A stretch of DNA of 32,000 nucleotides from Vibrio cholerae ATCC 14035 (lineage in GTDB: Bacteria; Pseudomonadota; Gammaproteobacteria; Enterobacterales; Vibrionaceae), in NCBI RefSeq assembly GCF_000621645.1, contig NZ_JHXR01000009.1, positions 1 to 32,000 on the forward strand, read 5' to 3'. The notes below the pieces were generated by a model. It saw only the letters and a list, made by a program, of their open reading frames with translations. It made no database searches and had not been told where the DNA came from. Positions 6,089 to 32,000 of this stretch are shown piece by piece. Position 1 is the stretch's first letter. Each line of letters starts with the position of its first letter. The translations under genes and the position numbers were made by a program.

Positions 6089-6091
6089 CGT

Positions 6092-9417: not shown

Positions 9418-9424
9418 TAGGACT

Positions 9425-10708: not shown

Positions 10709-10745
10709 TTGAACTAGCGAACTATAGAATTTAAAGGTAAACAAA

Positions 10746-11642: not shown

Positions 11643-11650
11643 ATAAAGGC

Positions 11651-11675
11651 TAGGGAGGAATATTCATCCTCCCTA
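11651..11675 (+). terminator. Hairpin downstream of nanA (candidate terminator or attenuator)
   Basis: Perfect 9-bp arms TAGGGAGGA (11651-11659) and TCCTCCCTA (11667-11675) flank a 7-nt loop. No T-tract follows on the plus strand, so termination efficiency is uncertain. Confidence 0.4.
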
Positions 11676-11770
11676 AAAGAAGATTTAAGAACAAATTATC
11701 ATGATGATGTATTAATAGATCTAGGTCTTTGGTACTTTTATGGTAGTCAAAAGAATATTAAGGACTCCAA

Positions 11771-12607: not shown

Positions 12608-12626
12608 GCAGTATTTAACAAGTTTG

Positions 12627-12657
12627 AAACCCATCAGGATATCGATGGGTTTTTTTA
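12627..12657 (+). terminator. Rho-independent terminator after nanR
   Basis: The stem AAACCCATC (12627-12635) / GATGGGTTT (12644-12652) has an 8-nt loop and runs into a T-tract (through about 12656). Confidence 0.8.
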
Positions 12658-12788
12658 GCGCATTTAGTGAAGATAATTTTTACTTTTATTAATGGTGAAG
12701 AAATTAATCTTCAAAACAAGGTGTTAATGTTCAGTTTCTCATTGAACACCTGACAAAAGTATGGATAGCAATTAATAAGGACAAATTA

Positions 12789-13943: not shown

Positions 13944-13957
13944 TTAAGGAGAGCATT

Positions 13958-15953: not shown

Positions 15954-16070
15954 TGTTAGATTCCTGTCTAGTTATTCGACATGTTCATGTATTCAGTATT
16001 TACCTGTCGCTATTGGCGTTACATTATGGTCCGATTAATAAAACATCAACAACTGCTGGGGGAATATTGT
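15954..16070. promoter_or_regulatory. Divergent promoter region between the WYL regulator and ddmD
   Basis: This 117-bp gap lies between divergent starts. It holds small palindromes (TAGAttcctgTCTA, ACATGttCATGT), but I cannot assign an operator with confidence. Confidence 0.4.
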
Positions 16071-19000
16071 ATGAATGTATCGATAGAAGAGTTTACTCAT
16101 TTTGATTTTCAGCTTGTTCCCGAGCCTTCGCCGCTTGATCTGGTAATTACAGAGTCGCTCAAAAATCACATTGAAGTAAATGGCGTTAAATCTGGTGCTT
16201 TGCTCCCATTACCATTTCAGACTGGAATCGGGAAAACTTACACGGCACTAAATTTCTTACTCCAGCAGATGTTAGAGCAAGTACGAAGCGAGCTGAAAGA
16301 AGAAAATACCGGCAAAAAATCCAAACGCTTGCTGTATTACGTTACTGATTCAGTAGATAACGTGGTAAGCGCGAAAGCAGACTTGTTGAAGTTAATTGAA
16401 AAGCAGACAGTCAAGGGTGAGCCTCGCTTCACTTTAGAACAACAAGAGTACCTTAAAGCGCAAATAGTACACCTTCCCAACCAGTCAGAGCAGCTATTGC
16501 AATGTTCTGATGCGGTATTGAATGACGTGTTAATCGGATTTAACTTGAACGCTGAGCGTGATGTTCAAGCAGAGTGGAGTGCCATATCAGGTCTAAGACG
16601 TCATGCGAGTAACCCTGAAGTTAAAATCTCTTTAAATAGGCAAGCGGGTTACTTCTACCGTAATTTAATAGACCGTTTGCAAAAGAAACAAAAAGGGGCC
16701 GATAGAGTATTGTTGAGCGGTTCGTTGCTAGCATCCGTTGAAACACTATTGCCGGGTGAAAAAATTCGTAATGGAAGTGCTCATGTTGCTTTTTTAACGA
16801 CAAGTAAGTTTCTGAAAGGCTTCCACAATACTCGTTCGCGTTACAGTCCATTGCGCGATCTAAGTGGTGCTGTACTTATAATTGATGAAATTGACAAGCA
16901 GAATCAGGTCATCCTTTCTGAGTTGTGTAAGCAACAAGCGCAGGACTTAATTTGGGCAATCAGAACTTTAAGAGCAAACTTTCGAGACCATCAACTTGAG
17001 AGCTCGCCTCGCTACGACAAAATTGAAGATCTATTTGAACCGCTCCGTGAGCGACTTGAAGAGTTTGGCACCAATTGGAATCTAGCGTTCGCATTTAATA
17101 CGGAAGGTGCTAACTTGAATGAGCGGCCTGTTCGGTTGTTTTCGGATAGAAGCTTCACGCATGTAAGTAGTGCCACTCATAAGCTGTCATTAAAGTCAGA
17201 TTTTTTGAGACGGAAAAATCTCATATTCAGCGATGAGAAAGTAGAAGGCTCTCTCATCGAAAAACACGGCCTTTTAACCCGCTTTGTCAATGAAGCAGAT
17301 GTTATATATCAGTGGTTTCTTGGCACAATGCGTAAAGCCGTGTTTCAGTACTGGGAGAACGTTCGTGGCTTAGAAATCGAAGTACGCGAAAATAGAAGTC
17401 TAGAAGGAACGTTTCAAGAAGCTGTTCAATCCCTGCTTACTCACTTCAACTTACAAGAATTTGAGTCTGCAGTTTACGAGTCTTTCGATACGCGGGGGTT
17501 ACGGCAATCTGCAGGTGGTAAAGCGAACAAGTTAAGTTCTAGCAAGAGTTACCATCATACAGGGCTAAAACTTGTAGAGGTGGCTCATAATCAGGGGACT
17601 CGCGATACCGTAAATTGTAAAGCGTCATTCCTAAATACTTCACCATCGGGTGTTTTAGCGGATATGGTTGATGCAGGTGCCGTTATTCTCGGCATAAGTG
17701 CAACAGCGAGAGCAGACACCGTAATACATAACTTTGATTTTAAATACTTGAATGAGCGTTTGGGTAACAAGCTTCTATCTTTGTCGAGAGAGCAAAAACA
17801 GCGGGTAAATAATTATTACCATAGTAGACGCAACTATAAAGATAACGGCGTAGTTTTGACAGTCAAATATCTCAATAGCCGAGATGCGTTTCTTGATGCT
17901 TTGTTGGAGGAATATAAGCCGGAAGCTCGATCAAGTCACTTTATCCTAAATCACTATCTCGGTATTGCGGAATCAGAGCAGGCATTTGTTCGTAGTTGGT
18001 TGTCTAAGCTCTTAGCTAGCATTAAAGCGTTTATCTCATCCCCTGATAATCGTTATATGCTGTCGTTGTTAAACCGCACCCTAGATACAACACGTCAGAA
18101 CATTAACGATTTCATTCAGTTCTGCTGTGATAAATGGGCAAAAGAATTTAATGTTAAAACCAAGACATTTTTTGGTGTGAATGCTGATTGGATGAGATTA
18201 GTTGGCTACGATGAAATTTCCAAGCACCTAAATACTGAGCTAGGAAAAGTCGTTGTATTTAGCACATACGCTTCAATGGGAGCAGGCAAAAACCCTGATT
18301 ATGCAGTTAATTTAGCTTTGGAAGGTGAAAGCTTAATATCTGTTGCCGATGTCACTTATAGCACGCAGTTGCGAAGCGATATAGACAGTATTTATCTTGA
18401 AAAGCCTACTCAGCTACTCCTGTCAGATGATTACTCGCATACTGCCAACCAGCTTTGTCAATTCCACCAAATTTTATCTTTGCAAGAGAACGGCGAGTTG
18501 TCACCGAAAAGCGCTGAAAACTGGTGTCGCCAGCAACTTATGGGTATGAGCAGAGAGCGTTCTTTACAGCAATACCACCAAACAAGTGACTACCAAAGTG
18601 CAGTAAGGAAATACATTGAGCAAGCGGTAGGAAGAGCAGGAAGAACGTCCCTGAAACGAAAACAAATTCTCTTGTTTGTTGATTCTGGTTTGAAAGAAAT
18701 TCTGGCGGAAGAGAGTCGAGACCCAAGTTTGTTTTCGCACAAATATGTTGCTTTGGTTAATAAAGCGAAATCAGCTGGTAAGTCTATTGTTGAGGACCGA
18801 GCTGTTCGACGTTTATTCAATCTTGCTCAAAGAAACAATAAAGACGGTATGCTATCAATCAAAGCCCTAGTTCATCGTCTACATAATCAACCAGCATCTA
18901 AGAGTGATATTCAAGAGTGGCAAGACATTAGAACTCAGTTGCTCCGATATCCGACGGTGGCCTTTCAACCGGAGCGATTCAATCGATTGTACTTACAGTC

Positions 19001-19643
19001 TATGACAAAAGGGTATTACCGTTATCAAGGTAATTTAGATGGTGATCCGAATAGCTTCGAGTTCTTTGATAGGGTGCCTTATGGCGACATGGTGTCAGAG
19101 GAAGATTGCAGCCTAGCGACGTTAGTACAGAACCAATATGTGAGGCCGTGGTTTGAACGCAAAGGCTTTGCCTGTTCGTGGCAAAAAGAAGCGAATGTGA
19201 TGACGCCAATTATGTTTACCAACATTTATAAGGGAGCCTTGGGCGAGCAAGCGGTAGAGGCAGTGCTAACAGCATTCGATTTTACCTTTGAAGAAGTTCC
19301 AAATTCTATTTACGAGCGATTTGACAATAGAGTCATATTTGCAGGGATTGAGCAACCGATCTGGCTAGACAGCAAATACTGGAAGCATGAAGGTAATGAA
19401 AGCAGCGAAGGCTACAGTTCGAAAATTGCATTGGTAGAAGAAGAGTTTGGACCTTCGAAGTTTATTTATGTGAATGCGTTAGGGGATACTTCAAAACCCA
19501 TTAGATACTTGAACTCGTGCTTCGTAGAAACCTCACCACAGTTAGCTAAAGTTATTGAGATTCCGGCACTAATTGATGATAGCAATGCCGACACCAACCG
19601 AACAGCAGTACAGGAGTTGATAAAATGGTTACACCACAGCTAG
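16071..19643 (+). CDS. ddmD: DdmD-type defence protein: N-terminal SF2 helicase fused to a C-terminal PD-(D/E)xK nuclease (1190 aa)
   Basis: Helicase motifs: Walker A TGIGKT (16221-16238), motif II DEID (16884-16895), motif III SAT within GISATA (17697-17705) and motif VI QAVGRAGRT (18621-18647). Nuclease motifs: GALGEQAVE helix, FDNRV (D at 19323-19325) and LDSKYW (19368-19376). I prefer the start at ATG 16071, which has a GGGGGA RBS. That start numbers the Walker lysine K55 and the nuclease lysine K1102, matching the DdmD mutant positions I recall. Confidence 0.9.
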   Translation: MNVSIEEFTHFDFQLVPEPSPLDLVITESLKNHIEVNGVKSGALLPLPFQTGIGKTYTALNFLLQQMLEQVRSELKEENTGKKSKRLLYYVTDSVDNVVSAKADLLKLIEKQTVKGEPRFTLEQQEYLKAQIVHLPNQSEQLLQCSDAVLNDVLIGFNLNAERDVQAEWSAISGLRRHASNPEVKISLNRQAGYFYRNLIDRLQKKQKGADRVLLSGSLLASVETLLPGEKIRNGSAHVAFLTTSKFLKGFHNTRSRYSPLRDLSGAVLIIDEIDKQNQVILSELCKQQAQDLIWAIRTLRANFRDHQLESSPRYDKIEDLFEPLRERLEEFGTNWNLAFAFNTEGANLNERPVRLFSDRSFTHVSSATHKLSLKSDFLRRKNLIFSDEKVEGSLIEKHGLLTRFVNEADVIYQWFLGTMRKAVFQYWENVRGLEIEVRENRSLEGTFQEAVQSLLTHFNLQEFESAVYESFDTRGLRQSAGGKANKLSSSKSYHHTGLKLVEVAHNQGTRDTVNCKASFLNTSPSGVLADMVDAGAVILGISATARADTVIHNFDFKYLNERLGNKLLSLSREQKQRVNNYYHSRRNYKDNGVVLTVKYLNSRDAFLDALLEEYKPEARSSHFILNHYLGIAESEQAFVRSWLSKLLASIKAFISSPDNRYMLSLLNRTLDTTRQNINDFIQFCCDKWAKEFNVKTKTFFGVNADWMRLVGYDEISKHLNTELGKVVVFSTYASMGAGKNPDYAVNLALEGESLISVADVTYSTQLRSDIDSIYLEKPTQLLLSDDYSHTANQLCQFHQILSLQENGELSPKSAENWCRQQLMGMSRERSLQQYHQTSDYQSAVRKYIEQAVGRAGRTSLKRKQILLFVDSGLKEILAEESRDPSLFSHKYVALVNKAKSAGKSIVEDRAVRRLFNLAQRNNKDGMLSIKALVHRLHNQPASKSDIQEWQDIRTQLLRYPTVAFQPERFNRLYLQSMTKGYYRYQGNLDGDPNSFEFFDRVPYGDMVSEEDCSLATLVQNQYVRPWFERKGFACSWQKEANVMTPIMFTNIYKGALGEQAVEAVLTAFDFTFEEVPNSIYERFDNRVIFAGIEQPIWLDSKYWKHEGNESSEGYSSKIALVEEEFGPSKFIYVNALGDTSKPIRYLNSCFVETSPQLAKVIEIPALIDDSNADTNRTAVQELIKWLHHS

Positions 19644-21688
19644 AACCTTCCTCGCAGGGGCCCTTATCAACCTTAATTGAACAAATATCAATTGATACTG
19701 ATTGGGTTGATAGAAGCTTCGCGATTTACTGTGTCAGTTATAAAGGCATAGACTTCTCAGAACGACCTAAGCGTTTGGTGACATTGGCGTCTGAAACCTA
19801 TAAATCAGGAAGTGTCTATTGCTTAGTCAAAGGTGCCAATAAAGAAGCGTGTTATTGGGTGTTGTTACCAAAGGATTCAAAGTTAGATCTCAAAGATACG
19901 TCTTTGGCCATTAAACCAAGTAGTGCTGCCGAGCTACCTACATGGCAGTTGGCTCGTTTATTGATTAAAGCGATACCCAAAGTATTGAGTGGCACAATGC
20001 CTGAGATAAAGCGCTTTGAAAGTGAAGGTTTGTATTATTTAGTCAAAAGCAAAAAGTTACCGAAAGATCACTCTGGCTATGAATTAACGACCGTCGAAAT
20101 CGACTTAGCTCCATGTGCAGCACTTGGATTCAAACAAACACTTTCAATGGGCACTAAAACATTTTCTCCCTTGTCTTGGTTTACGCTAGAGAACGGAGAA
20201 GTACAAAAAAAGGCAAGGTTTGCTACACGTTATCAACTTGACGATGTTGGGAAGTTGGTCAGTAAATCCATAAAGGGCGACTACATCAAGAAGCCGCTTT
20301 ACTCTAATGCGAAGAATCGAATTCAGGCAATTGATATCACCAAAGAATCTTATAGCGGTTTTCAATTATCTAAGGTCGGTATTCTTGAACAGTTTATGCA
20401 AGATCTTAAGCAAGCTTATGGTGATTCAGTATCCGTGAAGTTGCAGCGGATTCCCGGGGAAAAGCACAGATTTGTTTCAGATACGATTGTCAAAAATCAC
20501 TATGTAGGGCTGTTTGATGCGTTGAAAGAGCATCGTTTGGTGATCTGTGATTTAACCGAAAACCAAGACACAGACGCTGCATTAACCTTGCTTCATGGTA
20601 TCGAGCATCTAGATATAAATGCAGAAATAGCTGAAGTTCCGATTCGTGGGGCATTGAATATCCTAATTGTTGGTAATAAAGACACCTACAAGTCAGATGA
20701 AGAAGACCCGTATCAGGTTTATCGCAAGAAGTACCAAGATACGGTTTTCCAGTCGTGTTACCCAGAGCGCTTATGGAACCGTCAAGGCCAGCCAAACCGC
20801 CATGTGGTGGAAGTGCTGTTAAAAGAACTACTTATCAAGCTAGAAGTCCATACAAGAAAACATTTGATTGAGTACCCAAGTGGGCCTGAAAGATGTGTGT
20901 ATTACATGCCTCAGCGACCAAAAGACGAGTCTTCAGAGGTTCGAGACGAGCCGTGGCCAGTGTATGCGTCTAAGTTAGTTGGCGATGAATGGCAATATAC
21001 ACAAGCGACCCAAGAGGAGCTTGAAGATATTGAACTCGATTTAGGTAATGATAAAAGGCATGTATTTCATGGGTTTGAACGTTCTCCTGTTATTTATTGG
21101 CCGGAGACGGGGGACTATGCCATTTTCATTGACACTGGCATTCAAATGCTTCCGGAATTTGAAGCGGTTGCAGAGCGATTGCGTGAACTCAAAGAAGGGC
21201 GATCACAAGATGTCCCGATTGCATTGTTGGCTCAGTTCATTGAAGAAAACCCAGAGAGTAAAGTAATAAACAAACTGAGAGCGATATTGTCAGAGTGGGA
21301 TGATGTAGCACCTCTACCGTTTGATGAGTTTTCTACAATCGCGTACAAAAGCAGTGATGAAAAACAATTCTATGATTGGCTGCGTGAACAAGGATTCTTT
21401 TTAAAAACATCGATAAGAGGGCAAAGTGAGGGATTCTTTAATGCATCTTTAGGATTCTTCTATAACCGAGAGCAGGGGATGTACTTTGCTGGTGGTAAAG
21501 GCAGCCCACAAAGTAAAATCGAGACCTTTAGCCATTTATACCTGATAAAACATTCGTTTGATGCACTACCTGAAGAGGTAGAAAACTTGTTTGACGTTTA
21601 TCACTTAAGGCATCGCTTACCAACCGTAACGCCTTATCCATTTAAGCATCTACGTGAGTATGTTGAGATGCAGCGTTTTAGATCTTGA
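19625..21688 (+). CDS. ddmE: DdmE-type partner protein (687 aa), reported as a catalytically inactive prokaryotic Argonaute-like protein
   Basis: The ATG at 19625 overlaps the ddmD stop (19641-19643) by 19 nt, consistent with translational coupling. I can see no simple linear motif by eye. The assignment rests on synteny (downstream of ddmD, upstream of hsdM in VPI-2) and on published descriptions, and the Argonaute fold cannot be verified from sequence reading alone. Confidence 0.8.
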   Translation: MVTPQLEPSSQGPLSTLIEQISIDTDWVDRSFAIYCVSYKGIDFSERPKRLVTLASETYKSGSVYCLVKGANKEACYWVLLPKDSKLDLKDTSLAIKPSSAAELPTWQLARLLIKAIPKVLSGTMPEIKRFESEGLYYLVKSKKLPKDHSGYELTTVEIDLAPCAALGFKQTLSMGTKTFSPLSWFTLENGEVQKKARFATRYQLDDVGKLVSKSIKGDYIKKPLYSNAKNRIQAIDITKESYSGFQLSKVGILEQFMQDLKQAYGDSVSVKLQRIPGEKHRFVSDTIVKNHYVGLFDALKEHRLVICDLTENQDTDAALTLLHGIEHLDINAEIAEVPIRGALNILIVGNKDTYKSDEEDPYQVYRKKYQDTVFQSCYPERLWNRQGQPNRHVVEVLLKELLIKLEVHTRKHLIEYPSGPERCVYYMPQRPKDESSEVRDEPWPVYASKLVGDEWQYTQATQEELEDIELDLGNDKRHVFHGFERSPVIYWPETGDYAIFIDTGIQMLPEFEAVAERLRELKEGRSQDVPIALLAQFIEENPESKVINKLRAILSEWDDVAPLPFDEFSTIAYKSSDEKQFYDWLREQGFFLKTSIRGQSEGFFNASLGFFYNREQGMYFAGGKGSPQSKIETFSHLYLIKHSFDALPEEVENLFDVYHLRHRLPTVTPYPFKHLREYVEMQRFRS

Positions 21689-21704
21689 TAGCAGACTAAA
21701 CCAC

Positions 21705-21751
21705 GGTGCTAGTAACGAGCAGAAACGCATGTTTTATTCGCTACTAGTGCC
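21705..21751 (+). terminator. Imperfect hairpin between ddmE and hsdM (candidate weak terminator or RNA structure)
   Basis: The arms GGTGCTAGTAACGA (21705-21718) and TCGCTACTAGTGCC (21738-21751) form 14 positions, with two G-U wobbles and one mismatch. No T-tract follows. Confidence 0.3.
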
Positions 21752-21828
21752 AAAAGTCAGTAAAATTCTGCCCAATCATCCCTATTATTGTTTGAATTTC
21801 AAGCAACTATTGCTTTAAGAAGAAAATT

Positions 21829-24210
21829 ATGGACCACTCAGTACATAACAAACTCGTTTCATTTATTTGGTCGATTGCCGACGACTGTCTTCGTGATGTC
21901 TATGTTCGTGGTAAATACCGCGACGTTATCTTGCCTATGGTGGTGCTACGCCGTCTGGATACGCTTTTGGAGCCATCAAAAGAAGCAGTACTGGAAGAAG
22001 TCAGATTCCAAAAAGAAGAGATGAATGAAATTGAGCTTGATGACGCACCATTATGCGCTACATCAGGTTATGTGTTCTACAACACGTCCAAGTGGACTCT
22101 GCAAACGCTATTCAGTACAGCGACTAACAACCAACAGATTCTGCTGGCTAACTTCGAAGATTACCTCAACGGTTTTAGCGAAAACGTAAAAGAGATTGTT
22201 GAGTGTTTTAACCTGAAAGCCCAAATCCGTCACATGGCAGGGAAAGACGTTCTGCTAGATGTGGTTGAGAAATTCGTCTCGCCGTACATCAACTTAACGC
22301 CAGCGGTTAAAGAAGATCCTGAGGGTAACAAACTACCAGCACTCAGCAACCTTGGTATGGGCTATGTATTTGAAGAATTGATTCGTAAGTTCAACGAAGA
22401 GAACAACGAAGAGGCGGGGGAGCACTTTACTCCGCGTGAAGTGATCGAGCTGATGACGCACCTTGTTTTCGATCCAATCAAAGATAACTTGCCACTTTCT
22501 ATCACAGTGTATGACCCAGCATGTGGTAGTGGCGGTATGCTGACAGAAACGCAAAACTTTGTTGAAGAGAAATACCCAGCATCAAACCGTGATATCTACC
22601 TTTACGGTAAAGAGATCAACGATGAGACTTACGCTATCTGTAAGTCAGATATGATGATCAAAGGTAACAACCCAGAAAACATCCGTGTAGGTTCAACCCT
22701 TTCCACTGACGAATTCTCATCTAATCGCTTCGATTTCATGCTCTCTAACCCGCCTTATGGTAAGAGCTGGGCGAGTGAGCAAAAGCACATCAAAGAAGGC
22801 AAAGAAGTCGTTGATGGTCGCTTTAAAGTGAAGTTAAAAGATTACTGGGGTGTAGAGAGCGAGCAAGAAGCGATACCACGCTCAAGTGATGGCCAGTTAC
22901 TGTTCCTGATGGAAATGGTCACCAAAATGAAGTCGCCGCAAGACAGCCCATTGGGTTCACGCATTGCGTCCGTTCACAATGGTTCAAGCTTGTTTACCGG
23001 TGATGCGGGTAGTGGTGAAAGTAATATTCGTCGTTTCATCATAGAAAATGACATGCTGGATGCGATTGTTCAGTTGCCAAACAACCTGTTCTACAACACG
23101 GGTATTACCACGTACATCTGGCTGCTCAATAACAACAAACCTGAAAATCGCCAAGGCAAAGTGCAGCTGATTGATGCTAGCTTACTGTTCCGTAAGTTGC
23201 GTAAGAACTTGGGTAATAAAAACTGCGAATTTTCGCCAGAGCACATTGCGGAAATTGTCTCGACCTATCTTGAGAATCAATCTGTTGAACGTGCTATTGA
23301 TGAGAAAGGCGATCCGGTCGGTATTGCCGCGCAAGTATTCAAGAACCAAGATTTTGGTTACTACAAAGTCAATATTGAGCGCCCAGATCGCCGAAATGCC
23401 CAATTCCGCGCTGACTTAATTGAGCCGTTACGTTTTGAAAACTCACAGCGTGAAGTCATGGAGTACTTGTACGCCGAATATGGCGAGCAAGTCTATGACG
23501 CAGGTTTTGTTAAAGGGATTGAAAAAGAGATCACCAAGTGGTGTGAAGAAAATGATATCAGCCTAAACAAAGCGGCAAAAACCAAGTTGCTGGATACGAA
23601 AAACTGGATTAAACAACGCACACTGGTGAATGTAGCGAGTCAATTACACAAAAAGATCGGTGACGAAGTTTACAACGACTTTAACCAGTTCAAACAATTA
23701 GTAGATGCAGAACTTACATCACTCGGCCTTAAGCTTTCAGCACCAGAAAAGAAAGCCATCTTGGATGCGGTAAGCTGGTATGACGAAAATGCAGAAAAAG
23801 TCATCAAGAAAGTCGCCAAGCTAAAGCAAGATAAGTTAGACGAACTGCTAGAAAACTACGAATGTGAACTGCAAGATTTGCCAGATTTCGGGTACTACCC
23901 AACGGGCAACCACAACGAGTTCGTGACTTATGAATCAAGTTCAGACTTGCGTGATAGCGAATCCGTTCCACTTGAGCAAAGCATTTACCAATACTTCCTT
24001 GATGAAGTAAAGCCGCATGTAGATGAAGCTTGGATAAATCTTGAATCAGTCAAGATTGGTTATGAGATCAGCTTTAACAAGTACTTCTATCGCCATAAGC
24101 CACTGCGCTCAATGGATGAGGTCGCTGGTGACATTATTGCGCTTGAACAAAAAGCGGAAGGCTTAATTGCTGACATTTTGGGCATCTCTGTGGCTAAGGT
24201 TCAGGGGTAA
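21829..24210 (+). CDS. hsdM: Type I restriction-modification system DNA methyltransferase subunit (N6-adenine), a long 793-aa form
   Basis: The SAM-binding motif I DPACGSGG (22513-22536) and the catalytic motif IV NPPYG (22747-22761) are present. The N-terminal HsdM_N-like segment is LVSFIWSIADDCLRDVY...RDVILPMVVLRRLD. Confidence 0.95.
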   Translation: MDHSVHNKLVSFIWSIADDCLRDVYVRGKYRDVILPMVVLRRLDTLLEPSKEAVLEEVRFQKEEMNEIELDDAPLCATSGYVFYNTSKWTLQTLFSTATNNQQILLANFEDYLNGFSENVKEIVECFNLKAQIRHMAGKDVLLDVVEKFVSPYINLTPAVKEDPEGNKLPALSNLGMGYVFEELIRKFNEENNEEAGEHFTPREVIELMTHLVFDPIKDNLPLSITVYDPACGSGGMLTETQNFVEEKYPASNRDIYLYGKEINDETYAICKSDMMIKGNNPENIRVGSTLSTDEFSSNRFDFMLSNPPYGKSWASEQKHIKEGKEVVDGRFKVKLKDYWGVESEQEAIPRSSDGQLLFLMEMVTKMKSPQDSPLGSRIASVHNGSSLFTGDAGSGESNIRRFIIENDMLDAIVQLPNNLFYNTGITTYIWLLNNNKPENRQGKVQLIDASLLFRKLRKNLGNKNCEFSPEHIAEIVSTYLENQSVERAIDEKGDPVGIAAQVFKNQDFGYYKVNIERPDRRNAQFRADLIEPLRFENSQREVMEYLYAEYGEQVYDAGFVKGIEKEITKWCEENDISLNKAAKTKLLDTKNWIKQRTLVNVASQLHKKIGDEVYNDFNQFKQLVDAELTSLGLKLSAPEKKAILDAVSWYDENAEKVIKKVAKLKQDKLDELLENYECELQDLPDFGYYPTGNHNEFVTYESSSDLRDSESVPLEQSIYQYFLDEVKPHVDEAWINLESVKIGYEISFNKYFYRHKPLRSMDEVAGDIIALEQKAEGLIADILGISVAKVQG

Positions 24211-24214
24211 GCTG

Positions 24215-25555
24215 ATGAGCAATACTATGATTAAGAAGATGCCCAAATACGAGTCTTACAAAGACTCTTGTGAGCAATGGATTGGTGACATCCCCGCTCA
24301 TTGGGAAGTTTATAGGTTAAAAAGCGCTGTATATGAGTGCTCAAATGGTATTTGGGGAAGTGATCCTAACGGTAGGGACGAAATAGTCGTGCTGAGGGTT
24401 GCTGACTTTGATGATCACAAACTCAAAATATCAGATGAAAAACTTACTTATCGCTCAATTCCAGCAAAAGAGCGCCAGGGGCGTCTGTTAAAAAATGGAG
24501 ATTTGCTGATCGAAAAATCTGGTGGGGGAGATAAAACTCTAGTCGGAAGAGTAGTATTGTTTGATAAACAATACCCAGCAGTAACATCTAATTTTGTCGC
24601 AAAAATGACACCTAAAGAGTGGGTTATATCTGGATTCTTGAAGTACGTATTTTCTGCTTTATACAATAATGGAGTTAACTATCTTTCTATAAAGCAAACT
24701 ACTGGCATACAGAATCTCGATGCTAGCTCATATCTAAATGAAAAATTTTGTATCCCTCAAAAAGAGGAGCAATATGAAATAGCTAAGTTTCTCGACAACA
24801 AAACGACACAGATAAATGAAGCAATCGCAATCAAACAAAAGCAAATCGAGCTGCTAAAAGAACGCAAACAAATCATCATTCAGCAAGCAGTGACACAAGG
24901 TTTGAATCCCGATGCAACGATGAAATATTCAGGTGTGGATTGGATAGGAGCTATTCCAGGGCATTGGATCGTCAAAAGAGCTAAATACCTTTTAGATGAA
25001 ATCAATGAGCGTTCAGAGACAGGGCTTGAAGAGCTACTTTCAGTTTCCCACATGACTGGCGTAACTCCACGATCCGAGAAAAACGTCACCATGTTCATGG
25101 CGGAAGACTACACAGGTTCAAAGCTCTGCCACTCTGGTGATCTAGTGATCAACATAATGTGGGCATGGATGGGAGCGTTAGGTGTATCTGACAGAACTGG
25201 TATTGTGAGCCCATCATATGGCGTATTCCGTGAACAGCGCGAGGGCACTTTTGTACCTAAATATCTGGAGATGTTGCTGAAATCAACTAAGTATGTTGAA
25301 TACTACAACAAGGTCTCTACAGGACTTCATTCTTCTCGATTACGTTTTTATGGGCACATGTTGTTTGATATGGCTTTGGGCTTTCCTCCTTATGAAGAAC
25401 AAACACAAATTGTTGAATACATAAGCAGAGAATGTTCGAAAGTTGATGAAGCAATAACTGTTCAGGCTGAGCAAGTAAGTAAGCTCAAAGAATACAAAAC
25501 CACTCTCATCAACAGCGCTGTAACCGGCAAAATCAAAGTAACGGAGCTGGCGTAA
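24215..25555 (+). CDS. hsdS: Type I restriction-modification specificity subunit
   Basis: Two target-recognition halves are each followed by the conserved coiled-coil spacer (QINEAIAIKQKQIELLKERKQIIIQQAVTQGL and KVDEAITVQAEQVSKLKEYKTTLINSAVTGKIKV). I prefer the ATG at 24215, which is 4 nt after the hsdM stop. The ORF-track start at 24167 would overlap hsdM. Confidence 0.9.
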   Translation: MSNTMIKKMPKYESYKDSCEQWIGDIPAHWEVYRLKSAVYECSNGIWGSDPNGRDEIVVLRVADFDDHKLKISDEKLTYRSIPAKERQGRLLKNGDLLIEKSGGGDKTLVGRVVLFDKQYPAVTSNFVAKMTPKEWVISGFLKYVFSALYNNGVNYLSIKQTTGIQNLDASSYLNEKFCIPQKEEQYEIAKFLDNKTTQINEAIAIKQKQIELLKERKQIIIQQAVTQGLNPDATMKYSGVDWIGAIPGHWIVKRAKYLLDEINERSETGLEELLSVSHMTGVTPRSEKNVTMFMAEDYTGSKLCHSGDLVINIMWAWMGALGVSDRTGIVSPSYGVFREQREGTFVPKYLEMLLKSTKYVEYYNKVSTGLHSSRLRFYGHMLFDMALGFPPYEEQTQIVEYISRECSKVDEAITVQAEQVSKLKEYKTTLINSAVTGKIKVTELA

Positions 25556-26968
25556 ATGGCGGTTGTTGTTGCCAGTTGCACACTGGATAAGCTGTTTTCT
25601 AATGAGTCGATTTTAGCTTCTGACGGTAAAGTTCAAAAAAACGTTCACGGGATGCTTGCCATCCCTGAATATCAGCGTCCCTATCGCTGGAATGAAGAGC
25701 AAATCACCCGTCTATTGAAAGATTTCAAGCTTCATCAGCAAGAGTTAAATGACAAGCTTGAAACAGAGCATTGCCCATTCTATTTAGGTAGTGTGATTCT
25801 GCATCAGCAGGGTGACAAGCTGAATATCATCGATGGTCAGCAACGTTTGACCACAATGGCGTTGATGTCTTATCTAGCAAATAAACATGTCGATCTTAAA
25901 CTAGTTTACGAATCGCCTGAGAGTCAGCAGCAAATCAAACACAATCTTGGTTGGTTGTATAGAAATGAAGCCTCTTTGGCTGATATCGATTTTGCTCAAA
26001 TCAATATTACCTTGGTGGTGACAGACAGTGAAGATGAAGCCTACCGCTTTTTTGAAACCCAAAACACGGGCGGCGTGCGATTAGCCGGGCCAGATATTAT
26101 TAAAGCGCACCATCTTAGAGCGGTTGATGAGAAAGATAAGTCTGCGGTAAACACCTTTGCCACACGTTGGGAAGCGCTGGGGGATTTAAACCCCGTGGTC
26201 GATATTTTGCTACGTGGTCGCTATTGGCAATATCTGAACTTCCGAGACTACCCGCTGCACAACCAAACTCAGCAAGTGCGAAATAGTATTGTCACCGAAC
26301 TGGCAGAGCACACAGGCAAAGGCGACGATATTGCCTTTGGTAGAATTGCTCGTACTTATATGCCCAACGGTGGAGAGAGCTTGGCACAGCCTCAAGTTGG
26401 CTATGAATTGCGCCAGCCGCTAAACAGTGGCGCTAATACCATTCACTATTTGCAATATTTTGAGCAACTGCGCCAAACCTATTTGCTGAAAAACTCAACG
26501 CAAGGTGAGCTTGCAGGCTTTTACGAGTTCTATCAAAAGCTGGTGTGTAAACTTGATGGCTGCGGCTATCTCAAACAGCTTTATGACGCTTGCCTGCTGC
26601 TCTACATCAGTCAGCATGGGCAGCAAAGCCTAGAGGTAGCAGCGAAAAAACTTTTCCGCGTGGTTTACTCTCGACGTGTAGAGAACCAAAAAGCAGTAAA
26701 AGAGAAATCGGTTCCTGCTTTTGTCAAAGAAACCCCAGTGCTGGATTGGATTGCGATGAGCTATACCCCAGAGCAGTGTTTCGCACAGCTTGATGGTTTT
26801 AAGCTGTCGGTAGACAAGAGTGGCTTTGATAAAAACAGCGTTAAAAAACGTTTCGTCGAAAAAGTGTCTCAATACTTTGGCCTTGATATAGACAAGCAAG
26901 ATTATGCCAATCAATTTGGCCCTGCATTTAGCCAACACATCTCTGCGTTAGGAGCAAAACATGGGTGA
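25556..26968 (+). CDS. DUF262 (ParB/GmrSD N-terminal-like) protein without a recognisable C-terminal HNH/DUF1524 module
   Basis: Hallmark DUF262 motifs are present: IPEYQRPYRW, IIDGQQRLTT (DGQQR at 25832-25846) and FETQNTGGVRLAGPDIIKAH. The start ATG directly abuts the hsdS stop (TAAATG). Confidence 0.8.
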   Translation: MAVVVASCTLDKLFSNESILASDGKVQKNVHGMLAIPEYQRPYRWNEEQITRLLKDFKLHQQELNDKLETEHCPFYLGSVILHQQGDKLNIIDGQQRLTTMALMSYLANKHVDLKLVYESPESQQQIKHNLGWLYRNEASLADIDFAQINITLVVTDSEDEAYRFFETQNTGGVRLAGPDIIKAHHLRAVDEKDKSAVNTFATRWEALGDLNPVVDILLRGRYWQYLNFRDYPLHNQTQQVRNSIVTELAEHTGKGDDIAFGRIARTYMPNGGESLAQPQVGYELRQPLNSGANTIHYLQYFEQLRQTYLLKNSTQGELAGFYEFYQKLVCKLDGCGYLKQLYDACLLLYISQHGQQSLEVAAKKLFRVVYSRRVENQKAVKEKSVPAFVKETPVLDWIAMSYTPEQCFAQLDGFKLSVDKSGFDKNSVKKRFVEKVSQYFGLDIDKQDYANQFGPAFSQHISALGAKHG

Positions 26969-28952
26969 TCATTTATCGGTGCAAACTGAGCTTCTGACGC
27001 TTGAGAAAATCTACACCGACAACTACCAGTTCTCTATTCCCAGCTATCAACGTCCTTATGTCTGGTCAGATGATGATGTCTTGCTGCTGTTCAGAGATAT
27101 TAAAGAAGCGTGTCGATTAAAAGAGCCAAACTACTTTATCGGCACCATCCTGTCGTCTCGCATTGAACAAGATGGAGAGCGGATCTATGAGTTGATCGAT
27201 GGTCAGCAACGCACGACAACGCTAATGCTCATGACCATTGCTTTCAAGTACGCAGGCATTAAATCCGATCTTGCAGGGCTTGCTGTTTATACATCGAGTG
27301 ATGGTGAAGATAAGCCACGTCTCCAATTTTCAATTCGTGAGCAAGTTCAGCAGCTTTTAGGTGGTCTAGCGGGGCTTAAGAACTATCAAGTGCCGTCTAA
27401 GGAAACGATCGCTGACAATGCTTATTTGAAACAGATGGGCGTGGCGTTAGACGTATTGACCAAAGAAGTAGAGAAGCTCAAATCAGACGATGGGGTGAGC
27501 GCCGAAGCTATGGGGGATTACCTCTACCGCCAAGTTCAATGGGTAAATAACATTGTGCCAACACAAATGGACTTAAACCGATTGTTTGCCACCATGAATA
27601 CCGCTGGCATTCAATTAGAACAAGCGGACATTCTAAAGGCGAAGCTGTTCAAGCATATCCATACTGACAAAGCACAGTATGATGCAATGTGGGTGGCGTG
27701 TGAGCATCTGGAAAACTATTTTGAACGCAATGTACGCAAAGTATTTCCTAATGCGGATTGGTACCATATTGAACCCGAACATTTGGCGTCTTTTGATGCT
27801 GAACGTTTCGCTGCAAAAGATGAAACGTCAGAGGCGTTGTCTGGCTTGTCGATTGCTGAGCTAGCGTCACAAGTTAAAGCAAGTTCAATTCCTGATAACA
27901 CCGAGCAAGAGAAGTTTGAAACTTACGACTTGGACGTTGAAACAGTTTATTGTCGCCCGATCATCAAGTTCCCGCTGTTATTGATTCACGCTTATCGAGT
28001 CTACTTAGCGCTTAATGATCATAATGATATTGAACCACGTCTGCATAGCGATCGCTTGTTGGAGATATTCGACCCACTTATCAACGGTGATGAGCAATCG
28101 GTAAAGCTGTTTATTGAAACGCTATGGCAGGTTCGCTACCAGTTTGACCGTTGGGTTGTAAAATGGGTTGAATGTGATGATGCGACAGATGCGCAGCTCG
28201 GCTTAACGTATCAATCTCGCAGCAAGTCGAATGACACTTACTACATCAACCGAACGCAGAAAGAGCTGACGGATATTGTGCTTTTGCAAAGTGTTCGCAA
28301 CTTTACCGGTGAGCGCAGCGCCCAGTATTGGTTAACACCATTTCTTTCAGGCTTGATCCGTTCGAGTATCAAGCAAGACTCTGTCGCGTTAGAGCTACTA
28401 GAAAACATTGACAACAAAATGTCATTGTCTGTTGATACTCAAAAAGAGGCCAGCTTTGCACTCGCTGAAGGCATAGAGCCAAACTGCCAGAGTTGGCAAT
28501 CTCAATCGACATATTTTGCAAAGTCGTTAGGTACGAGCTTTGAGCATTACTGGTTTCAAAAACTTGAATATTTGATTTGGAAGAAAATGAAGGCGTCAGA
28601 ATCTTCATTGCCTTCTGAAGAATTGAATAAGTTTAAAAAGTACCGGATTACATCCAAAAACTCAGTAGAACATGTTCATCCTCAAAATGATGAGTATAAC
28701 AGTAGGTTAGACTGTGAAACGTTAAACTCATTTGGAAATCTAGTGCTACTGAGTCCAGGTGAAAACTCGTCTTATAGCAATCAAGATGTTGACAAGAAAC
28801 GCATCGACTTCGAGAGAAAATCCCACTTTGACGCACTGAAATTAAGAGAGATATTCGGTGTGAAAGGTCAGGGACTGTGGGGCAAACAGCAGATAGATAA
28901 CCATCTAGAAGACATGATGGCAGTATTTGCTCAGCACTATAAACATCAATAA
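26961..28952 (+). CDS. GmrSD-family protein (N-terminal DUF262 plus C-terminal DUF1524 His-Me finger nuclease), a candidate type IV modification-dependent restriction enzyme
   Basis: DUF262 motifs: IPSYQRPYVW, LIDGQQRTTT (27198-27212) and FATMNTAGIQLEQADILKAKLF. C-terminal DUF1524 motifs: SVEHVHPQN (EHVHPQN at 28668-28688) followed by FGNLVLLSPGENSSYSNQ. The gene overlaps the previous gene by 8 nt (ATGGGTGA). Confidence 0.85.
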   Translation: MGDHLSVQTELLTLEKIYTDNYQFSIPSYQRPYVWSDDDVLLLFRDIKEACRLKEPNYFIGTILSSRIEQDGERIYELIDGQQRTTTLMLMTIAFKYAGIKSDLAGLAVYTSSDGEDKPRLQFSIREQVQQLLGGLAGLKNYQVPSKETIADNAYLKQMGVALDVLTKEVEKLKSDDGVSAEAMGDYLYRQVQWVNNIVPTQMDLNRLFATMNTAGIQLEQADILKAKLFKHIHTDKAQYDAMWVACEHLENYFERNVRKVFPNADWYHIEPEHLASFDAERFAAKDETSEALSGLSIAELASQVKASSIPDNTEQEKFETYDLDVETVYCRPIIKFPLLLIHAYRVYLALNDHNDIEPRLHSDRLLEIFDPLINGDEQSVKLFIETLWQVRYQFDRWVVKWVECDDATDAQLGLTYQSRSKSNDTYYINRTQKELTDIVLLQSVRNFTGERSAQYWLTPFLSGLIRSSIKQDSVALELLENIDNKMSLSVDTQKEASFALAEGIEPNCQSWQSQSTYFAKSLGTSFEHYWFQKLEYLIWKKMKASESSLPSEELNKFKKYRITSKNSVEHVHPQNDEYNSRLDCETLNSFGNLVLLSPGENSSYSNQDVDKKRIDFERKSHFDALKLREIFGVKGQGLWGKQQIDNHLEDMMAVFAQHYKHQ

Positions 28953-28988
28953 AAACTTCGAGTCATCAAACTAAACAACGTGGTATTT

Positions 28989-31900
28989 ATGGTTAGTAAA
29001 ACAAATGAACAGGCGCTAGAGGCCGCAATCGAAAAAGGTTTAGCAGGTATTTGTAAAGAAGAGTTAGCGCTGGGTGAAGCGCCTCTTAATTACAATAATG
29101 ATCTTTATCTTATTGGCTCTCCAAGTGACTTTGACAAGCAGTACGCTTTAGATACCCGTTTGTTTTGGCAATTCCTCGAAGATACTCAAGCGAGTGAGTT
29201 AGAAAAACTTAAGCGCACCAGCCCTCACGATTGGCAGAGAAAAATCCTTGAGCGTTTCGATCGTATGATCAAGCGCCATGGTGTTTTGCGACTATTGAAA
29301 AAAGGGCTAGACGTTGACGATGCCTTTCTATCGTTGATGTACCCGGCACCACTCGCCAGTAGTTCTGAGAAGGTAAAAAAAGATTTTTCTGCCAACCTGT
29401 TTAGTGTGACTCGCCAGGTTTGTTATTCCAATGCAAATCCATTGGAAGAAATTGACATGGTGCTTTTTATCAATGGTATCCCTCTGATTACCCTTGAGCT
29501 TAAAAACCCATGGACGGGCCAGAACGCTGTTTATCATGGTCAAAAGCAGTACCGCGATGATAGAGATGCAAATCAGCCATTGTTGAACTTTGCTCGTTGC
29601 TTGGTTCACATGGCGGTCGATACCGATGAAGTCTATATGACGACTAAGCTGGCAGGCAAAAATACCTTCTTCCTGCCGTTCAACAAAGGCTTCAACTTTG
29701 GCAAAGGTAACCCGATTAATCCACATGGGCACAAGACGGCCTACTTGTGGCAAGAGGTATTCCGCAAAGAAAGCATCGCCAATATTATTCAGCACTTTAT
29801 TCGTCTTGATGGCAGCAGTAAAAAGCAGTTGGACAAACGAACTTTGTTCTTCCCTCGATATCACCAAATGGATGTCGTACGTCGCTTGGTTGATCACTGC
29901 TCAGTTAATGGTGTTGGGCAAACGTATTTGATACAGCACTCAGCGGGGTCAGGTAAATCTAACTCAATTACATGGGCGGCGTATCAGCTCATCGAAACTT
30001 ACCCTATTAGCGATGATCTACCAGGAAGTAGAGGAAAAGAAATGCCTCTATTCGATTCGGTCATCGTTGTTACTGACCGCCGATTGCTCGATAAGCAGTT
30101 ACGCGACAATATAAAAGAGTTCTCTGAAGTGAAGAACATTGTTGCGCCTGCGTTTAAATCGTCAGAACTAAAGTCAGCATTAGAGAATGGTAAGAAAATC
30201 ATCATTACCACCATTCAAAAGTTTCCCTATATTGTCGATGGTATTGCAGACTTAAGTGATAGGCGCTTTGCTGTCATCATTGATGAAGCACACAGTTCGC
30301 AGGATGGGCATAACCAAGATAAGTTAAATGAAGCAATGGGGTTTGTTTCGGAGGATGTTTTAGACAAAGCATTACAAAGTGCGAAAAATCGTAAGATGCG
30401 CTCAAATGCATCTTACTTTGCATTCACCGCAACGCCCAAAAACACCACTCTAGAAAAGTTTGGTCAGCGACAAGCAGACGGAACTTATGTTCCTTTTCAT
30501 TTGTACTCGATGAAACAAGCCATCGAAGAAGGGTTTATCCTCGATGTTATTGCCAATTACACGACCTATAAGAGCTACTACGAGATTGAAAAATCAATCC
30601 AAGATAACCCTGAGTTTGACAGCAAAAAAGCACAGAAGCGCTTACGAGCGTATGTAGAGGCAAGCCAAGAGACGATAGACACTAAAGCCGAGATCATGCT
30701 TGAGCATTTCATCAAGCATGTCGTTAACGGCAAGAAGCTAAAAGGTAAAGGCAAAGGTATGGTGGTGACTCAAAACATTGAGTCAGCCATACGTTACTAT
30801 CGGGCACTAACCAGACAGCTCAATAAAATGGGCAATCCGTTTAAAGTTGCCATTGCATTCTCTGGCTCAAAAGAAGTCGATGGGATTGAGTACACAGAAG
30901 CTGACATTAATGGTTTCCCAGAAGGTGATACCAAAGATTACTTTGATGTGAACTACAAGCGTAAGGAGCCGGACTCTCCAATCCCTAAGCACGTAGACCA
31001 AGATGCTTACCGGTTGCTGGTAGTGGCGAATAAGTATTTAACAGGCTTTGATCAGCCGAAACTTTGTGCCATGTACGTGGATAAAAAGTTGGCTAGCGTT
31101 TTGTGTGTCCAAGCTCTGTCACGCTTAAACCGTTCAGCGCCAAAGTACGGTAAGAAAACGGAAGATCTGTTTGTGTTGGATTTCTTCAACTCAGTGGATG
31201 ATATCAAAACCGCATTCGACCCTTTCTATACATCCACAACGCTTTCTGAAGCGACAGATGTCAATGTTCTTCATGAGCTAAAAGATGATATGGACGACAC
31301 AGATGTTTATGAGTGGTTTGAAGTTGAGGAGTTCAACAAGCGTTTCTTTGAAGGACGAGAGGCTCAGGACCTAAGCCCAATCATTGACATCGCAGCTGCG
31401 CGTTTTAACCACGAGTTAGAACTAGAGAACGAGTTTAAAGTCGATTTCAAAGTGAAAGCCAAGCAGTTTGTGAAAATCTACGGCCAGATTGCATCTATCA
31501 TGCCTTATGAGGTCGTTCAGTGGGAAAAACTGTTCTGGTTCTTGAAATTTTTGATTCCGAAGCTTTCCGTCGAAGACCCAGATAAAGAAGCACTAGACTC
31601 ATTACTAGATTCAGTTGATTTGAGCTCTTATGGATTACAAAGGGTTAAGCTTAACCATTCCATCGAGCTAGATGACTCTGAAACTGAGTTAGATCCTCAA
31701 AACCCGAACCCGCGCGGGGCTTATGGTCCTGAAGCTGAGAAAGATCCGTTAGATGAGATCATCAAAATCTTTAACGAACGCTGGTTCCAAGGCTGGAGCG
31801 CAACACCAGAAGAGCAGAGAGTTAAGTTTGTGAACATTGCTGAGAGCATCCGAAATCACCCAGATTTCGAAGCTAAATACCAAAACAACGCAGACCCTCA

Positions 31901-32000
31901 TACGCGAGAGTTAGCGTTTGAAAAGATGTTGAAAGAAATCATGCTTCAACGTCGTAAAGACGAGTTAGAGCTCTACAAGCTGTTTGCCCAAGACCCAGCT
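28989..32000 (+). CDS. hsdR: Type I restriction enzyme R subunit (3' end beyond the window)
   Basis: The frame is open from ATG 28989 to the window end (1004 codons). It is absent from the ORF track because no stop lies in the window. The N-terminal PD-(D/E)xK motif is DMVLFINGIPLITLELK (D at 29454-29456, ELK at 29496-29504). Walker A is HSAGSGKS (29937-29960) and the DEAH box is at 30282-30293. The later motifs FAFTATP and ALSRLNR are also present. Confidence 0.95.
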   Translation, partial: MVSKTNEQALEAAIEKGLAGICKEELALGEAPLNYNNDLYLIGSPSDFDKQYALDTRLFWQFLEDTQASELEKLKRTSPHDWQRKILERFDRMIKRHGVLRLLKKGLDVDDAFLSLMYPAPLASSSEKVKKDFSANLFSVTRQVCYSNANPLEEIDMVLFINGIPLITLELKNPWTGQNAVYHGQKQYRDDRDANQPLLNFARCLVHMAVDTDEVYMTTKLAGKNTFFLPFNKGFNFGKGNPINPHGHKTAYLWQEVFRKESIANIIQHFIRLDGSSKKQLDKRTLFFPRYHQMDVVRRLVDHCSVNGVGQTYLIQHSAGSGKSNSITWAAYQLIETYPISDDLPGSRGKEMPLFDSVIVVTDRRLLDKQLRDNIKEFSEVKNIVAPAFKSSELKSALENGKKIIITTIQKFPYIVDGIADLSDRRFAVIIDEAHSSQDGHNQDKLNEAMGFVSEDVLDKALQSAKNRKMRSNASYFAFTATPKNTTLEKFGQRQADGTYVPFHLYSMKQAIEEGFILDVIANYTTYKSYYEIEKSIQDNPEFDSKKAQKRLRAYVEASQETIDTKAEIMLEHFIKHVVNGKKLKGKGKGMVVTQNIESAIRYYRALTRQLNKMGNPFKVAIAFSGSKEVDGIEYTEADINGFPEGDTKDYFDVNYKRKEPDSPIPKHVDQDAYRLLVVANKYLTGFDQPKLCAMYVDKKLASVLCVQALSRLNRSAPKYGKKTEDLFVLDFFNSVDDIKTAFDPFYTSTTLSEATDVNVLHELKDDMDDTDVYEWFEVEEFNKRFFEGREAQDLSPIIDIAAARFNHELELENEFKVDFKVKAKQFVKIYGQIASIMPYEVVQWEKLFWFLKFLIPKLSVEDPDKEALDSLLDSVDLSSYGLQRVKLNHSIELDDSETELDPQNPNPRGAYGPEAEKDPLDEIIKIFNERWFQGWSATPEEQRVKFVNIAESIRNHPDFEAKYQNNADPHTRELAFEKMLKEIMLQRRKDELELYKLFAQDPA

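What the first reader, a model, noticed from the sequence alone, without database searches (positions are those of the whole stretch)
25556..28952. Two tandem DUF262/GmrSD-like genes embedded inside the type I R-M operon
Two translationally coupled genes lie between hsdS and hsdR (TAAATG junction at 25553-25558; 8-nt overlap at 26961-26968). Both begin with DUF262 motifs (YQRPY.W, DGQQR, the N-T-G-G/A...L...D-I-L/I-K box). Only the second carries the C-terminal DUF1524 His-Me nuclease (EHVHPQN...GNLVLLSPGENSSYSN). Canonical GmrSD/BrxU enzymes are single polypeptides, so a nuclease-less DUF262 protein paired with a full GmrSD looks like a heteromeric or regulator-effector variant. Sitting within an hsdMS...R operon would pair an enzyme that attacks unmodified DNA with a candidate modification-dependent one. 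This echoes other defence genes embedded in type I loci, such as PrrC. To my knowledge this pair has not been functionally characterised.
Basis: partly seen in the sequence, partly recalled or inferred. Interest (0 to 1): 0.7.

Follow-up and report, generated by a model that had tools for sequence, protein, structure and literature searches.

The report
TgvAB restriction system of Vibrio cholerae
These two genes are tgvA and tgvB of Vibrio cholerae pathogenicity island 2, a two-protein enzyme that cuts sugar-modified phage DNA, which two laboratories described and tested in 2024, so the finding is real but not new.

Summary
Two overlapping genes (25556-26968, 470 aa; 26961-28952, 663 aa) lie between hsdS and hsdR. 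Both start with a DUF262/GmrSD_N domain. Only the second has the DUF1524/GmrSD_C His-Me nuclease.

The pair is not uncharacterised. ORF1 is identical to V. cholerae VC1767 (TgvA). ORF2 is identical to the classical-biotype O395 protein VC0395_A1364 and differs from N16961 VC1766 (TgvB) by one residue, C405 instead of R405. The window is part of Vibrio pathogenicity island 2: nanH, the nan-nag cluster, ddmDE, hsdM, hsdS, tgvA, tgvB, hsdR.

Vizzarro et al. (J Bacteriol 2024, PMC11411939) and Gomez & Waters (bioRxiv 10.1101/2024.04.05.588314) named the pair TgvAB. They showed that:
- both genes are needed for defence;
- the system restricts T-even phages carrying glucosyl- or arabinosyl-5hmC;
- DGQQR mutants of either protein, and TgvB H571A or N602A, abolish defence;
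- protection does not need HsdR nuclease activity;
- the five-gene layout recurs in other genera.

My survey agrees. In all 15 loci from other species tgvA is followed by tgvB, and in 13 of them the pair sits between hsdS and hsdR.

How TgvA and TgvB cooperate is still open, as is the role of TgvA's C-terminal DUF7834 domain. Novelty: already known. Interest: low.

The parts
21829..24210 (+). hsdM, the type I R-M methyltransferase (VC1769 homologue)
   Evidence: Pfam HsdM_N plus N6_Mtase. PADLOC MTase_I, E 4e-266.
24215..25555 (+). hsdS, the type I specificity subunit (VC1768 homologue). The ATG at 24215 is the likely start.
   Evidence: Pfam Methylase_S. PADLOC Specificity_I, E 3.9e-234, aligning from residue 18 of the TTG-started ORF. 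The gene is called as 446 aa in assemblies.
25556..26968 (+). tgvA (VC1767), 470 aa: an N-terminal DUF262/GmrSD_N NTPase-like domain plus a C-terminal DUF7834 domain, with no nuclease domain
   Evidence: Pfam. The sequence is an exact match to Q9KR76_VIBCH. The gene is named and tested in PMC11411939 and 10.1101/2024.04.05.588314.
25649..26116 (+). TgvA DUF262/GmrSD_N domain (aa 32-187) with QR (aa 40-41), DGQQR (aa 93-97) and FETQN (aa 166-170)
   Evidence: These residues are invariant in 55 homologues.
26150..26812 (+). TgvA DUF7834 domain (aa 199-419), function unknown
   Evidence: Pfam PF25202, E 1.8e-43. It has no profile homology to TgvB and no significant PDB fold match when modelled alone.
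26961..26968 (+). 8-nt overlap (ATGGGTGA) between the tgvA stop and the tgvB start
   Evidence: The same overlap is reported by Gomez & Waters.
26961..28952 (+). tgvB (VC1766 / VC0395_A1364), 663 aa: DUF262/GmrSD_N plus a helical linker plus the DUF1524/GmrSD_C His-Me nuclease
   Evidence: Pfam. Exact match to V. cholerae O395 ABQ21700.1/ACP09876.1. 662/663 identical to Q9KR77.
27000..27650 (+). TgvB DUF262/GmrSD_N domain (aa 14-230) with DGQQR at aa 80-84
28173..28175 (+). TgvB codon 405: Cys in this window, Arg in the experimentally tested 7PET allele
   Evidence: 42 of 52 homologues have R at this position.
28494..28922 (+). TgvB DUF1524/GmrSD_C His-Me finger nuclease domain (aa 512-654). 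The catalytic H571 is at 28671-28673 and N602 at 28764-28766.
   Evidence: H571A and N602A abolish defence in PMC11411939.
28989..32000 (+). hsdR, the type I restriction subunit (VC1765 homologue), cut off by the window end (1003 of 1019 aa)
   Evidence: Pfam HSDR_N, ResIII, SWI2_SNF2 and T1R_D3-like. TIGR00348. Full length seen.

Best explanation
[quoted passage not shown] Shown by published experiments on the 7PET allele: both proteins are required. The system restricts T-even-type phages whose cytosines are glucosyl- or arabinosyl-hydroxymethylated. Phages that lose glucosylation escape. The DGQQR motif of both DUF262 domains and the His-Me finger of TgvB (H571, N602) are essential. Protection does not need HsdR nuclease activity.

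Inferred, not shown: TgvA and TgvB are made in a fixed ratio through translational coupling (the 8-nt overlap) and assemble into a hetero-oligomer. The two DUF262 NTPase domains sense the modified DNA and gate the single nuclease domain of TgvB, which cuts the phage DNA. This would parallel the NTP-controlled dimer of BrxU.

The host type I system (HsdMSR) in the same operon attacks unmethylated DNA. The operon therefore covers both unmodified and hypermodified invaders.
For: Identity:
- TgvA is an exact match to Q9KR76/VC1767. TgvB is an exact match to V. cholerae O395 proteins and 662/663 identical to Q9KR77/VC1766.
- Window 16961-32000 is 100% identical to V. cholerae assemblies. It differs at only 4 of 15,040 positions from loci carrying the N16961-type TgvB.

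Context matches VPI-2:
- DdmD and DdmE give full-length PADLOC hits.
- V. cholerae sialidase and the nan-nag genes lie upstream.
- Zorya follows hsdR in the matching contigs.

Domains and motifs:
- H571 and N602 fall at the same residue numbers as the published mutants.

Function comes from PMC11411939 and 10.1101/2024.04.05.588314.

Conservation of the pair:
- 12 of 12 genome loci have tgvA followed by tgvB, and 11 of 12 have the pair between hsdS and hsdR.
- Three more distant homologues give two embedded pairs and one free-standing pair.
- TgvA and TgvB homologue lists share the same contigs.
Against: Nothing contradicts the identification.

Caveats:
- The allele here has TgvB C405 instead of R405. 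Both papers tested 7PET alleles (strains A1552 and C6706). R is the majority residue at this position (42 of 52 homologues), next to the invariant K401 and D406. Activity of this exact allele is therefore inferred.
- A physical TgvA-TgvB complex, DNA cleavage in vitro, and the part that reads the sugar have not been shown by anyone.
- No activity against a natural V. cholerae phage is known.
Confidence: 0.97

Rival explanations
1. TgvA is not part of the enzyme. It is an accessory that counters a phage-encoded inhibitor of GmrSD-type enzymes (such as T4 IPI*), and TgvB is the complete restriction enzyme.
For: Vizzarro et al. raise this as a possibility. By domains, TgvB has the full GmrSD architecture.
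Against: TgvA's DGQQR NTPase motif is required for defence. It is invariant across 55 homologues, which fits a catalytic or sensing partner better than a decoy. The pair protects against all 15 tested Tevenvirinae, including Mosigviruses. tgvA-tgvB adjacency is kept down to about 53% identity.
Confidence: 0.1
2. TgvA is a DndB-like transcriptional or post-transcriptional regulator of tgvB or the hsd operon, not a subunit.
For: Nuclease-less DUF262 proteins exist as regulators in Dnd systems (my own knowledge, not tested here). Gomez & Waters mention regulation of expression as one reading of the overlap.
Against: TgvB expressed alone from PBAD still gives no protection, so lack of expression is not the reason TgvA is needed. 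No DNA-binding HTH domain was found in TgvA.
Confidence: 0.03
3. The allele in this window (TgvB R405C) is inactive or has altered specificity, so the locus here is a decaying copy.
For: R405 is the majority residue (42 of 52), next to the invariant K401 and D406. The C405 allele is much the rarer of the two. It is listed in 137 blocks of the collection, against 5383 for the R405 allele.
Against: The position is not invariant: K, H, T, P and N also occur. Both ORFs are intact. The locus is otherwise near-identical to the tested one.
Confidence: 0.1

Closest known systems
TgvAB (VC1767/VC1766) of V. cholerae VPI-2 (Vizzarro et al. 2024, PMC11411939; Gomez & Waters 2024, 10.1101/2024.04.05.588314)
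   Same: It is this system. TgvA is 100% identical and TgvB is 662/663 identical. The operon position, the 8-nt overlap, and the DdmDE and Zorya neighbours are all the same.
   Different: There is one substitution in TgvB (C405 here, R405 in the tested 7PET strains). Nearby, HsdS differs by R87H and DdmD by K921E.
Single-chain GmrSD (Eco94GmrSD, CT596 GmrSD)
   Same: It has DUF262 with QR/DGQQR/FxxxN and the DUF1524 His-Me nuclease. It targets sugar-modified 5hmC DNA.
   Different: GmrSD works as one polypeptide, or as a GmrS plus GmrD split. Here a complete GmrSD-like protein still needs a second, nuclease-less DUF262 protein.
BrxU, SspE and DndI (solved GmrSD-family structures)
   Same: The fold family is shared. 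The TgvA model's best PDB matches are DndI 9jfl and SspE 6jiv/7drs. The best sequence-level PDB hits for both proteins are 9jfl and SspE.
   Different: Those are single-protein enzymes. SspE and DndI sense phosphorothioate. TgvA's C-terminal DUF7834 region, modelled alone, has no significant match in the PDB.
GrwAB of WASA-lineage V. cholerae VSP-II
   Same: It is another two-protein GmrSD-like type IV system: one DUF262+DUF1524 protein plus one DUF262-only partner, both required.
   Different: It sits in a different island. The partner has a different, longer C-terminus. Its range is broader and includes 7-deazaguanine-modified phages.
PrrC embedded in the EcoprrI type I locus
   Different: PrrC is an anticodon nuclease kept latent by the type I enzyme. 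TgvAB protection persists when HsdR's nuclease is inactivated, and tgvAB alone protects.

Membership tests
TgvAB (V. cholerae VPI-2) | Protein sequences equal to VC1767 and VC1766 | tested here: met
   TgvA is an exact match to Q9KR76. TgvB is an exact match to O395 ABQ21700.1 and 662/663 identical to Q9KR77.
TgvAB (V. cholerae VPI-2) | Located between hsdS and hsdR of the VPI-2 type I R-M operon, with ddmDE upstream and Zorya downstream | tested here: met
   The layout matches that described in PMC11411939.
TgvAB (V. cholerae VPI-2) | Both genes required for restriction of glucosyl- or arabinosyl-5hmC phages | not testable with these tools
   Published for the 7PET allele. The C405 allele in this window has not been tested.
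[quoted passage not shown] | N-terminal DUF262 (ParB-like NTPase) domain with QR, DGQQR and FxxxN motifs | tested here: met
   PF03235 matches with E 8.8e-29 (TgvA) and 3.2e-32 (TgvB). The motifs are located.
[quoted passage not shown] | C-terminal DUF1524 His-Me finger nuclease (H...N...H/N) | tested here: met
   Met by TgvB: PF07510, E 1.4e-21, with H571 and N602. TgvA lacks it: there is no PF07510 hit and no profile homology to TgvB beyond aa 235.
[quoted passage not shown] | Activity carried by one polypeptide (or by a GmrS plus GmrD split) | not testable with these tools
   The literature reports that TgvB alone is inactive. On that basis TgvAB is a two-protein variant of the family.

The most novel reading that the evidence does not exclude
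TgvA and TgvB form an obligate asymmetric hetero-oligomer with two NTPase sensor domains and only one nuclease. TgvA's DUF7834 domain has no recognisable solved-structure relative. It includes the invariant but poorly modelled stretch GYELRQPLNSGANTIHYL (aa 282-299). In this reading that domain is the element that reads the sugar on 5hmC or licenses the nuclease. This would be a new way of building a GmrSD-type enzyme, and it is still unresolved in the literature.
Probability: 0.35. Interest if true: 0.4.

Novelty: already known. Interest (0 to 1): 0.1.

Why it matters
As a discovery it does not matter, because the system was named, tested and surveyed in 2024.

What remains of interest is mechanistic. 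It is unclear why a protein with the complete GmrSD architecture needs a second, nuclease-less DUF262 partner. It is also unknown what the DUF7834 domain does. No structure or in-vitro biochemistry exists for TgvAB, and no natural V. cholerae phage target is known.

The window carries the classical-lineage allele (TgvB C405), which has not been tested.

Tried and rejected
1. NCBIfam has no model for either protein. My first NCBIfam call failed because I gave hsdR in the wrong frame.
2. PADLOC 2.0.0 (2023) has no TgvAB model. Both proteins hit only generic DUF262 models (HEC-06, Orf5, SspE, mREase_IV), mainly over the N-terminal domain.
3. Sequence search of the PDB found no TgvA or TgvB structure.
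4. I asked whether TgvA's C-terminus is a degenerate copy of TgvB's linker or nuclease. Profile-profile comparison aligns only the DUF262 domains (TgvA 1-235 against TgvB 5-278, probability 99.2), so I rejected this at the sequence-profile level.
5. The AlphaFold model of TgvA aa 196-470 alone has mean pLDDT 69.5. It is confident only from about aa 295. Foldseek against the PDB gave nothing below E 0.3, so no fold assignment was possible.
7. The promoter and terminator scan of 21500-29300 found fewer promoter-like sites than shuffled sequence and no convincing internal terminator. It gives no evidence of a separate transcription unit and no evidence against one.
9. The genome-contig scan returned no V. 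cholerae locus. I obtained the organism identity from exact protein look-ups and encoding contigs instead.
Full report
**Observation.** The ORF list shows two ATG-started genes on the + strand at exactly the stated coordinates: 25556-26968 (470 aa) and 26961-28952 (663 aa). The hsdS stop TAA (25553-25555) abuts the first ATG. The two genes overlap by 8 nt, ATGGGTGA. All quoted motifs are present:
- YQRPY and DGQQR occur in both proteins.
- FETQNTGGVRLAGPDIIK is in ORF1 and FATMNTAGIQLEQADILK in ORF2.
- EHVHPQN (aa 570-576) and GNLVLLSPGENSSYSN (aa 592-607) occur only in ORF2.

Pfam confirms the domain calls at E-values that exclude chance. ORF1 is GmrSD_N (PF03235, 8.8e-29) plus DUF7834 (PF25202, 1.8e-43). 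ORF2 is GmrSD_N (3.2e-32) plus GmrSD_C (PF07510, 1.4e-21).

The flanking genes are hsdM (21829-24210), hsdS and hsdR. The likely hsdS start is 24215. hsdR runs from 28989 to the window end and is 1019 aa in full-length contigs.

**What it is.** An exact-sequence look-up shows that ORF1 equals UniProt Q9KR76 of V. cholerae. ORF2 equals proteins of V. cholerae O395, ABQ21700.1 and ACP09876.1. ORF2 differs from Q9KR77, which PMC11411939 and the 2025 review treat as VC1766, by one residue: C405 instead of R405.

The surroundings fit Vibrio pathogenicity island 2:
- Full-length PADLOC hits to DdmD and DdmE lie immediately upstream.
- The V. cholerae sialidase, with its family-specific lectin insertion, and the nan-nag sialic-acid genes lie further upstream.
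- In contigs that carry the same TgvB, a type I Zorya system follows hsdR.

Window 16961-32000 is 100% identical to three V. cholerae assemblies. It differs at only four positions from loci with the N16961-type TgvB: DdmD K921E, a silent change in ddmE, HsdS R87H, and TgvB C405R.

**Literature.** A full-text search for TgvAB found two 2024 papers that describe exactly this pair.

Vizzarro et al. (PMC11411939) showed the following:
- VC1765-69 is a five-gene operon, and its type I system is active.
- The embedded genes VC1767/VC1766 (tgvA/tgvB) protect E. coli at least 1,000-fold against all tested Tevenvirinae, covering glucosyl- and arabinosyl-5hmC phages.
- Neither gene works alone.
- An HsdR K172A mutant does not reduce protection.
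- DGQQR mutants in either protein, and TgvB H571A or N602A, abolish defence.

In this window's TgvB, H571 and N602 fall at exactly those residue numbers.

Gomez & Waters (10.1101/2024.04.05.588314) found the same genes in a cosmid screen. They noted the 8-bp overlap. They showed that T2 agt mutants and T4 Δagt Δbgt escape, at the cost of becoming sensitive to McrA/McrBC.

A 2025 review (PMC12409362) restates that TgvAB and the related GrwAB are unusual two-protein GmrSD-like systems whose mechanism is unresolved.

**Recurrence elsewhere.** A genome scan with TgvA returned 12 loci in other species: Shewanella, Pseudoalteromonas, several Vibrio, Aliivibrio, Marinomonas and Pseudidiomarina. Mapping the window's proteins onto them gave these results:
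- tgvA is followed by tgvB in 12 of 12 loci.
- The order hsdM-hsdS-tgvA-tgvB-hsdR holds in 11 of 12.
- ddmDE lies upstream in four.
- HsdS is only 31-66% identical, while its neighbours are 91-97% identical in the seven closest loci. This is the usual pattern of specificity-domain exchange.

Three more distant TgvA homologues (54-59% identity) gave two further embedded pairs (Alcanivorax, Leucothrix) and one free-standing pair next to an integrase (Yersinia enterocolitica). This agrees with the published survey: 79 five-gene clusters and 1,341 tgvAB pairs in 41,142 genomes.

**Mechanism: what is shown and what is inferred.** Published work on the 7PET allele shows four things:
- dependence on DNA modification;
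- a requirement for both proteins;
- a requirement for both DGQQR motifs and for the TgvB His-Me finger;
- independence from HsdR nuclease activity.

The rest is inference, by me and by the authors. It holds that the overlap couples translation, that the two proteins assemble, and that the two DUF262 NTPase domains gate the single nuclease by analogy with BrxU.

I tried to add to this:
- Profile-profile comparison of 55 TgvA and 52 TgvB homologues aligns only the DUF262 domains (TgvA 1-235 against TgvB 5-278, probability 99.2). TgvA's C-terminus is therefore not a recognisable degenerate copy of TgvB's linker or nuclease.
- An AlphaFold model of TgvA (pLDDT 76) best matches DndI (9jfl) and SspE (6jiv, 7drs) in the PDB.
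- The DUF7834 region modelled alone (pLDDT 69.5) is mostly helical. It has no PDB match better than E 0.3.
- A stretch that is largely invariant across the family, GYELRQPLNSGANTIHYL (aa 282-299), is modelled with low confidence. This would fit an element that orders only in a complex, but that is speculation.
- No PDB entry exists for either protein by sequence.

**Caveat on the allele.** The window carries the O395-type TgvB with C405. The tested strains (A1552, C6706) are 7PET. R is the majority residue at this position (42 of 52 homologues), next to the invariant K401 and D406. Other residues also occur there. Function of this exact allele is very likely but has not been demonstrated.

**Verdict.** The claim that the pair is uncharacterised is wrong: this is TgvAB, which is already known. 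Interest is low. The remaining open question is how TgvA and TgvB cooperate and what DUF7834 does.

Noticed in passing
window 15981-21688: The plasmid-defence module DdmDE (DdmD helicase-nuclease and the DdmE Argonaute-like protein) lies directly upstream of hsdM. Both give full-length PADLOC hits. The DdmD model aligns from residue 31 of the ORF, so the start is probably 16071 (1190 aa). Assemblies annotate the protein as 1190, 1205 or 1220 aa.
   Followed up: partly
window 18741, 20329, 24474, 28173: Only four SNPs separate this window from loci with the N16961-type TgvB over 15,040 bp. They are DdmD K921E, a silent change in ddmE, HsdS R87H, and TgvB C405R. TgvB residue 405 is R in 42 of 52 homologues and sits next to the invariant K401 and D406.
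   Followed up: partly
window 15093-15953 (- strand): A WYL-domain protein (286 aa) is encoded divergently from ddmD. It may be a regulator of the defence region.
   Followed up: no
window 24215-25555 compared with L001-L012: HsdS is only 31-66% identical across species, while HsdM, TgvA, TgvB and HsdR in the same loci are about 91-97% identical in the seven closest loci. In some loci the halves of HsdS match in swapped order. This is consistent with exchange of target-recognition domains.
   Followed up: no
window 26399-26452 (TgvA aa 282-299): The stretch GYELRQPLNSGANTIHYL is largely invariant across 55 TgvA homologues but is modelled by AlphaFold at low confidence. It is a candidate interface or ligand-contact element.
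   Followed up: partly
L017 1339-3135 (Alcanivorax sp. 97CO-5): A third DUF262-only protein (598 aa), next to an SNF2-type helicase, lies just upstream of the hsdM-hsdS-tgvA-tgvB-hsdR cluster.
   Followed up: no
L012 6816-8001 (Pseudidiomarina fusca): A gap of about 1.2 kb separates hsdS from tgvA, unlike the direct abutment elsewhere. It may hold an extra gene or an insertion.
   Followed up: no
window 1241-15028: The rest of the window holds other VPI-2 genes. These include a RadC-like JAB protein (1241-1750) and the neuraminidase NanH (2184-4607). The nan-nag sialic-acid cluster follows: a TRAP transporter, NanA-like aldolase, NanE, a ROK kinase, an RpiR regulator and two NanM-like epimerases.
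   Followed up: partly
L015 2666-4728 and 19419-21992 (GCA_030295265.1): In one V. cholerae assembly with the same TgvB, ddmE and zorD are each called as two pieces. A 1-bp indel relative to the window was seen. This could be a frameshift or a sequencing error.
   Followed up: no
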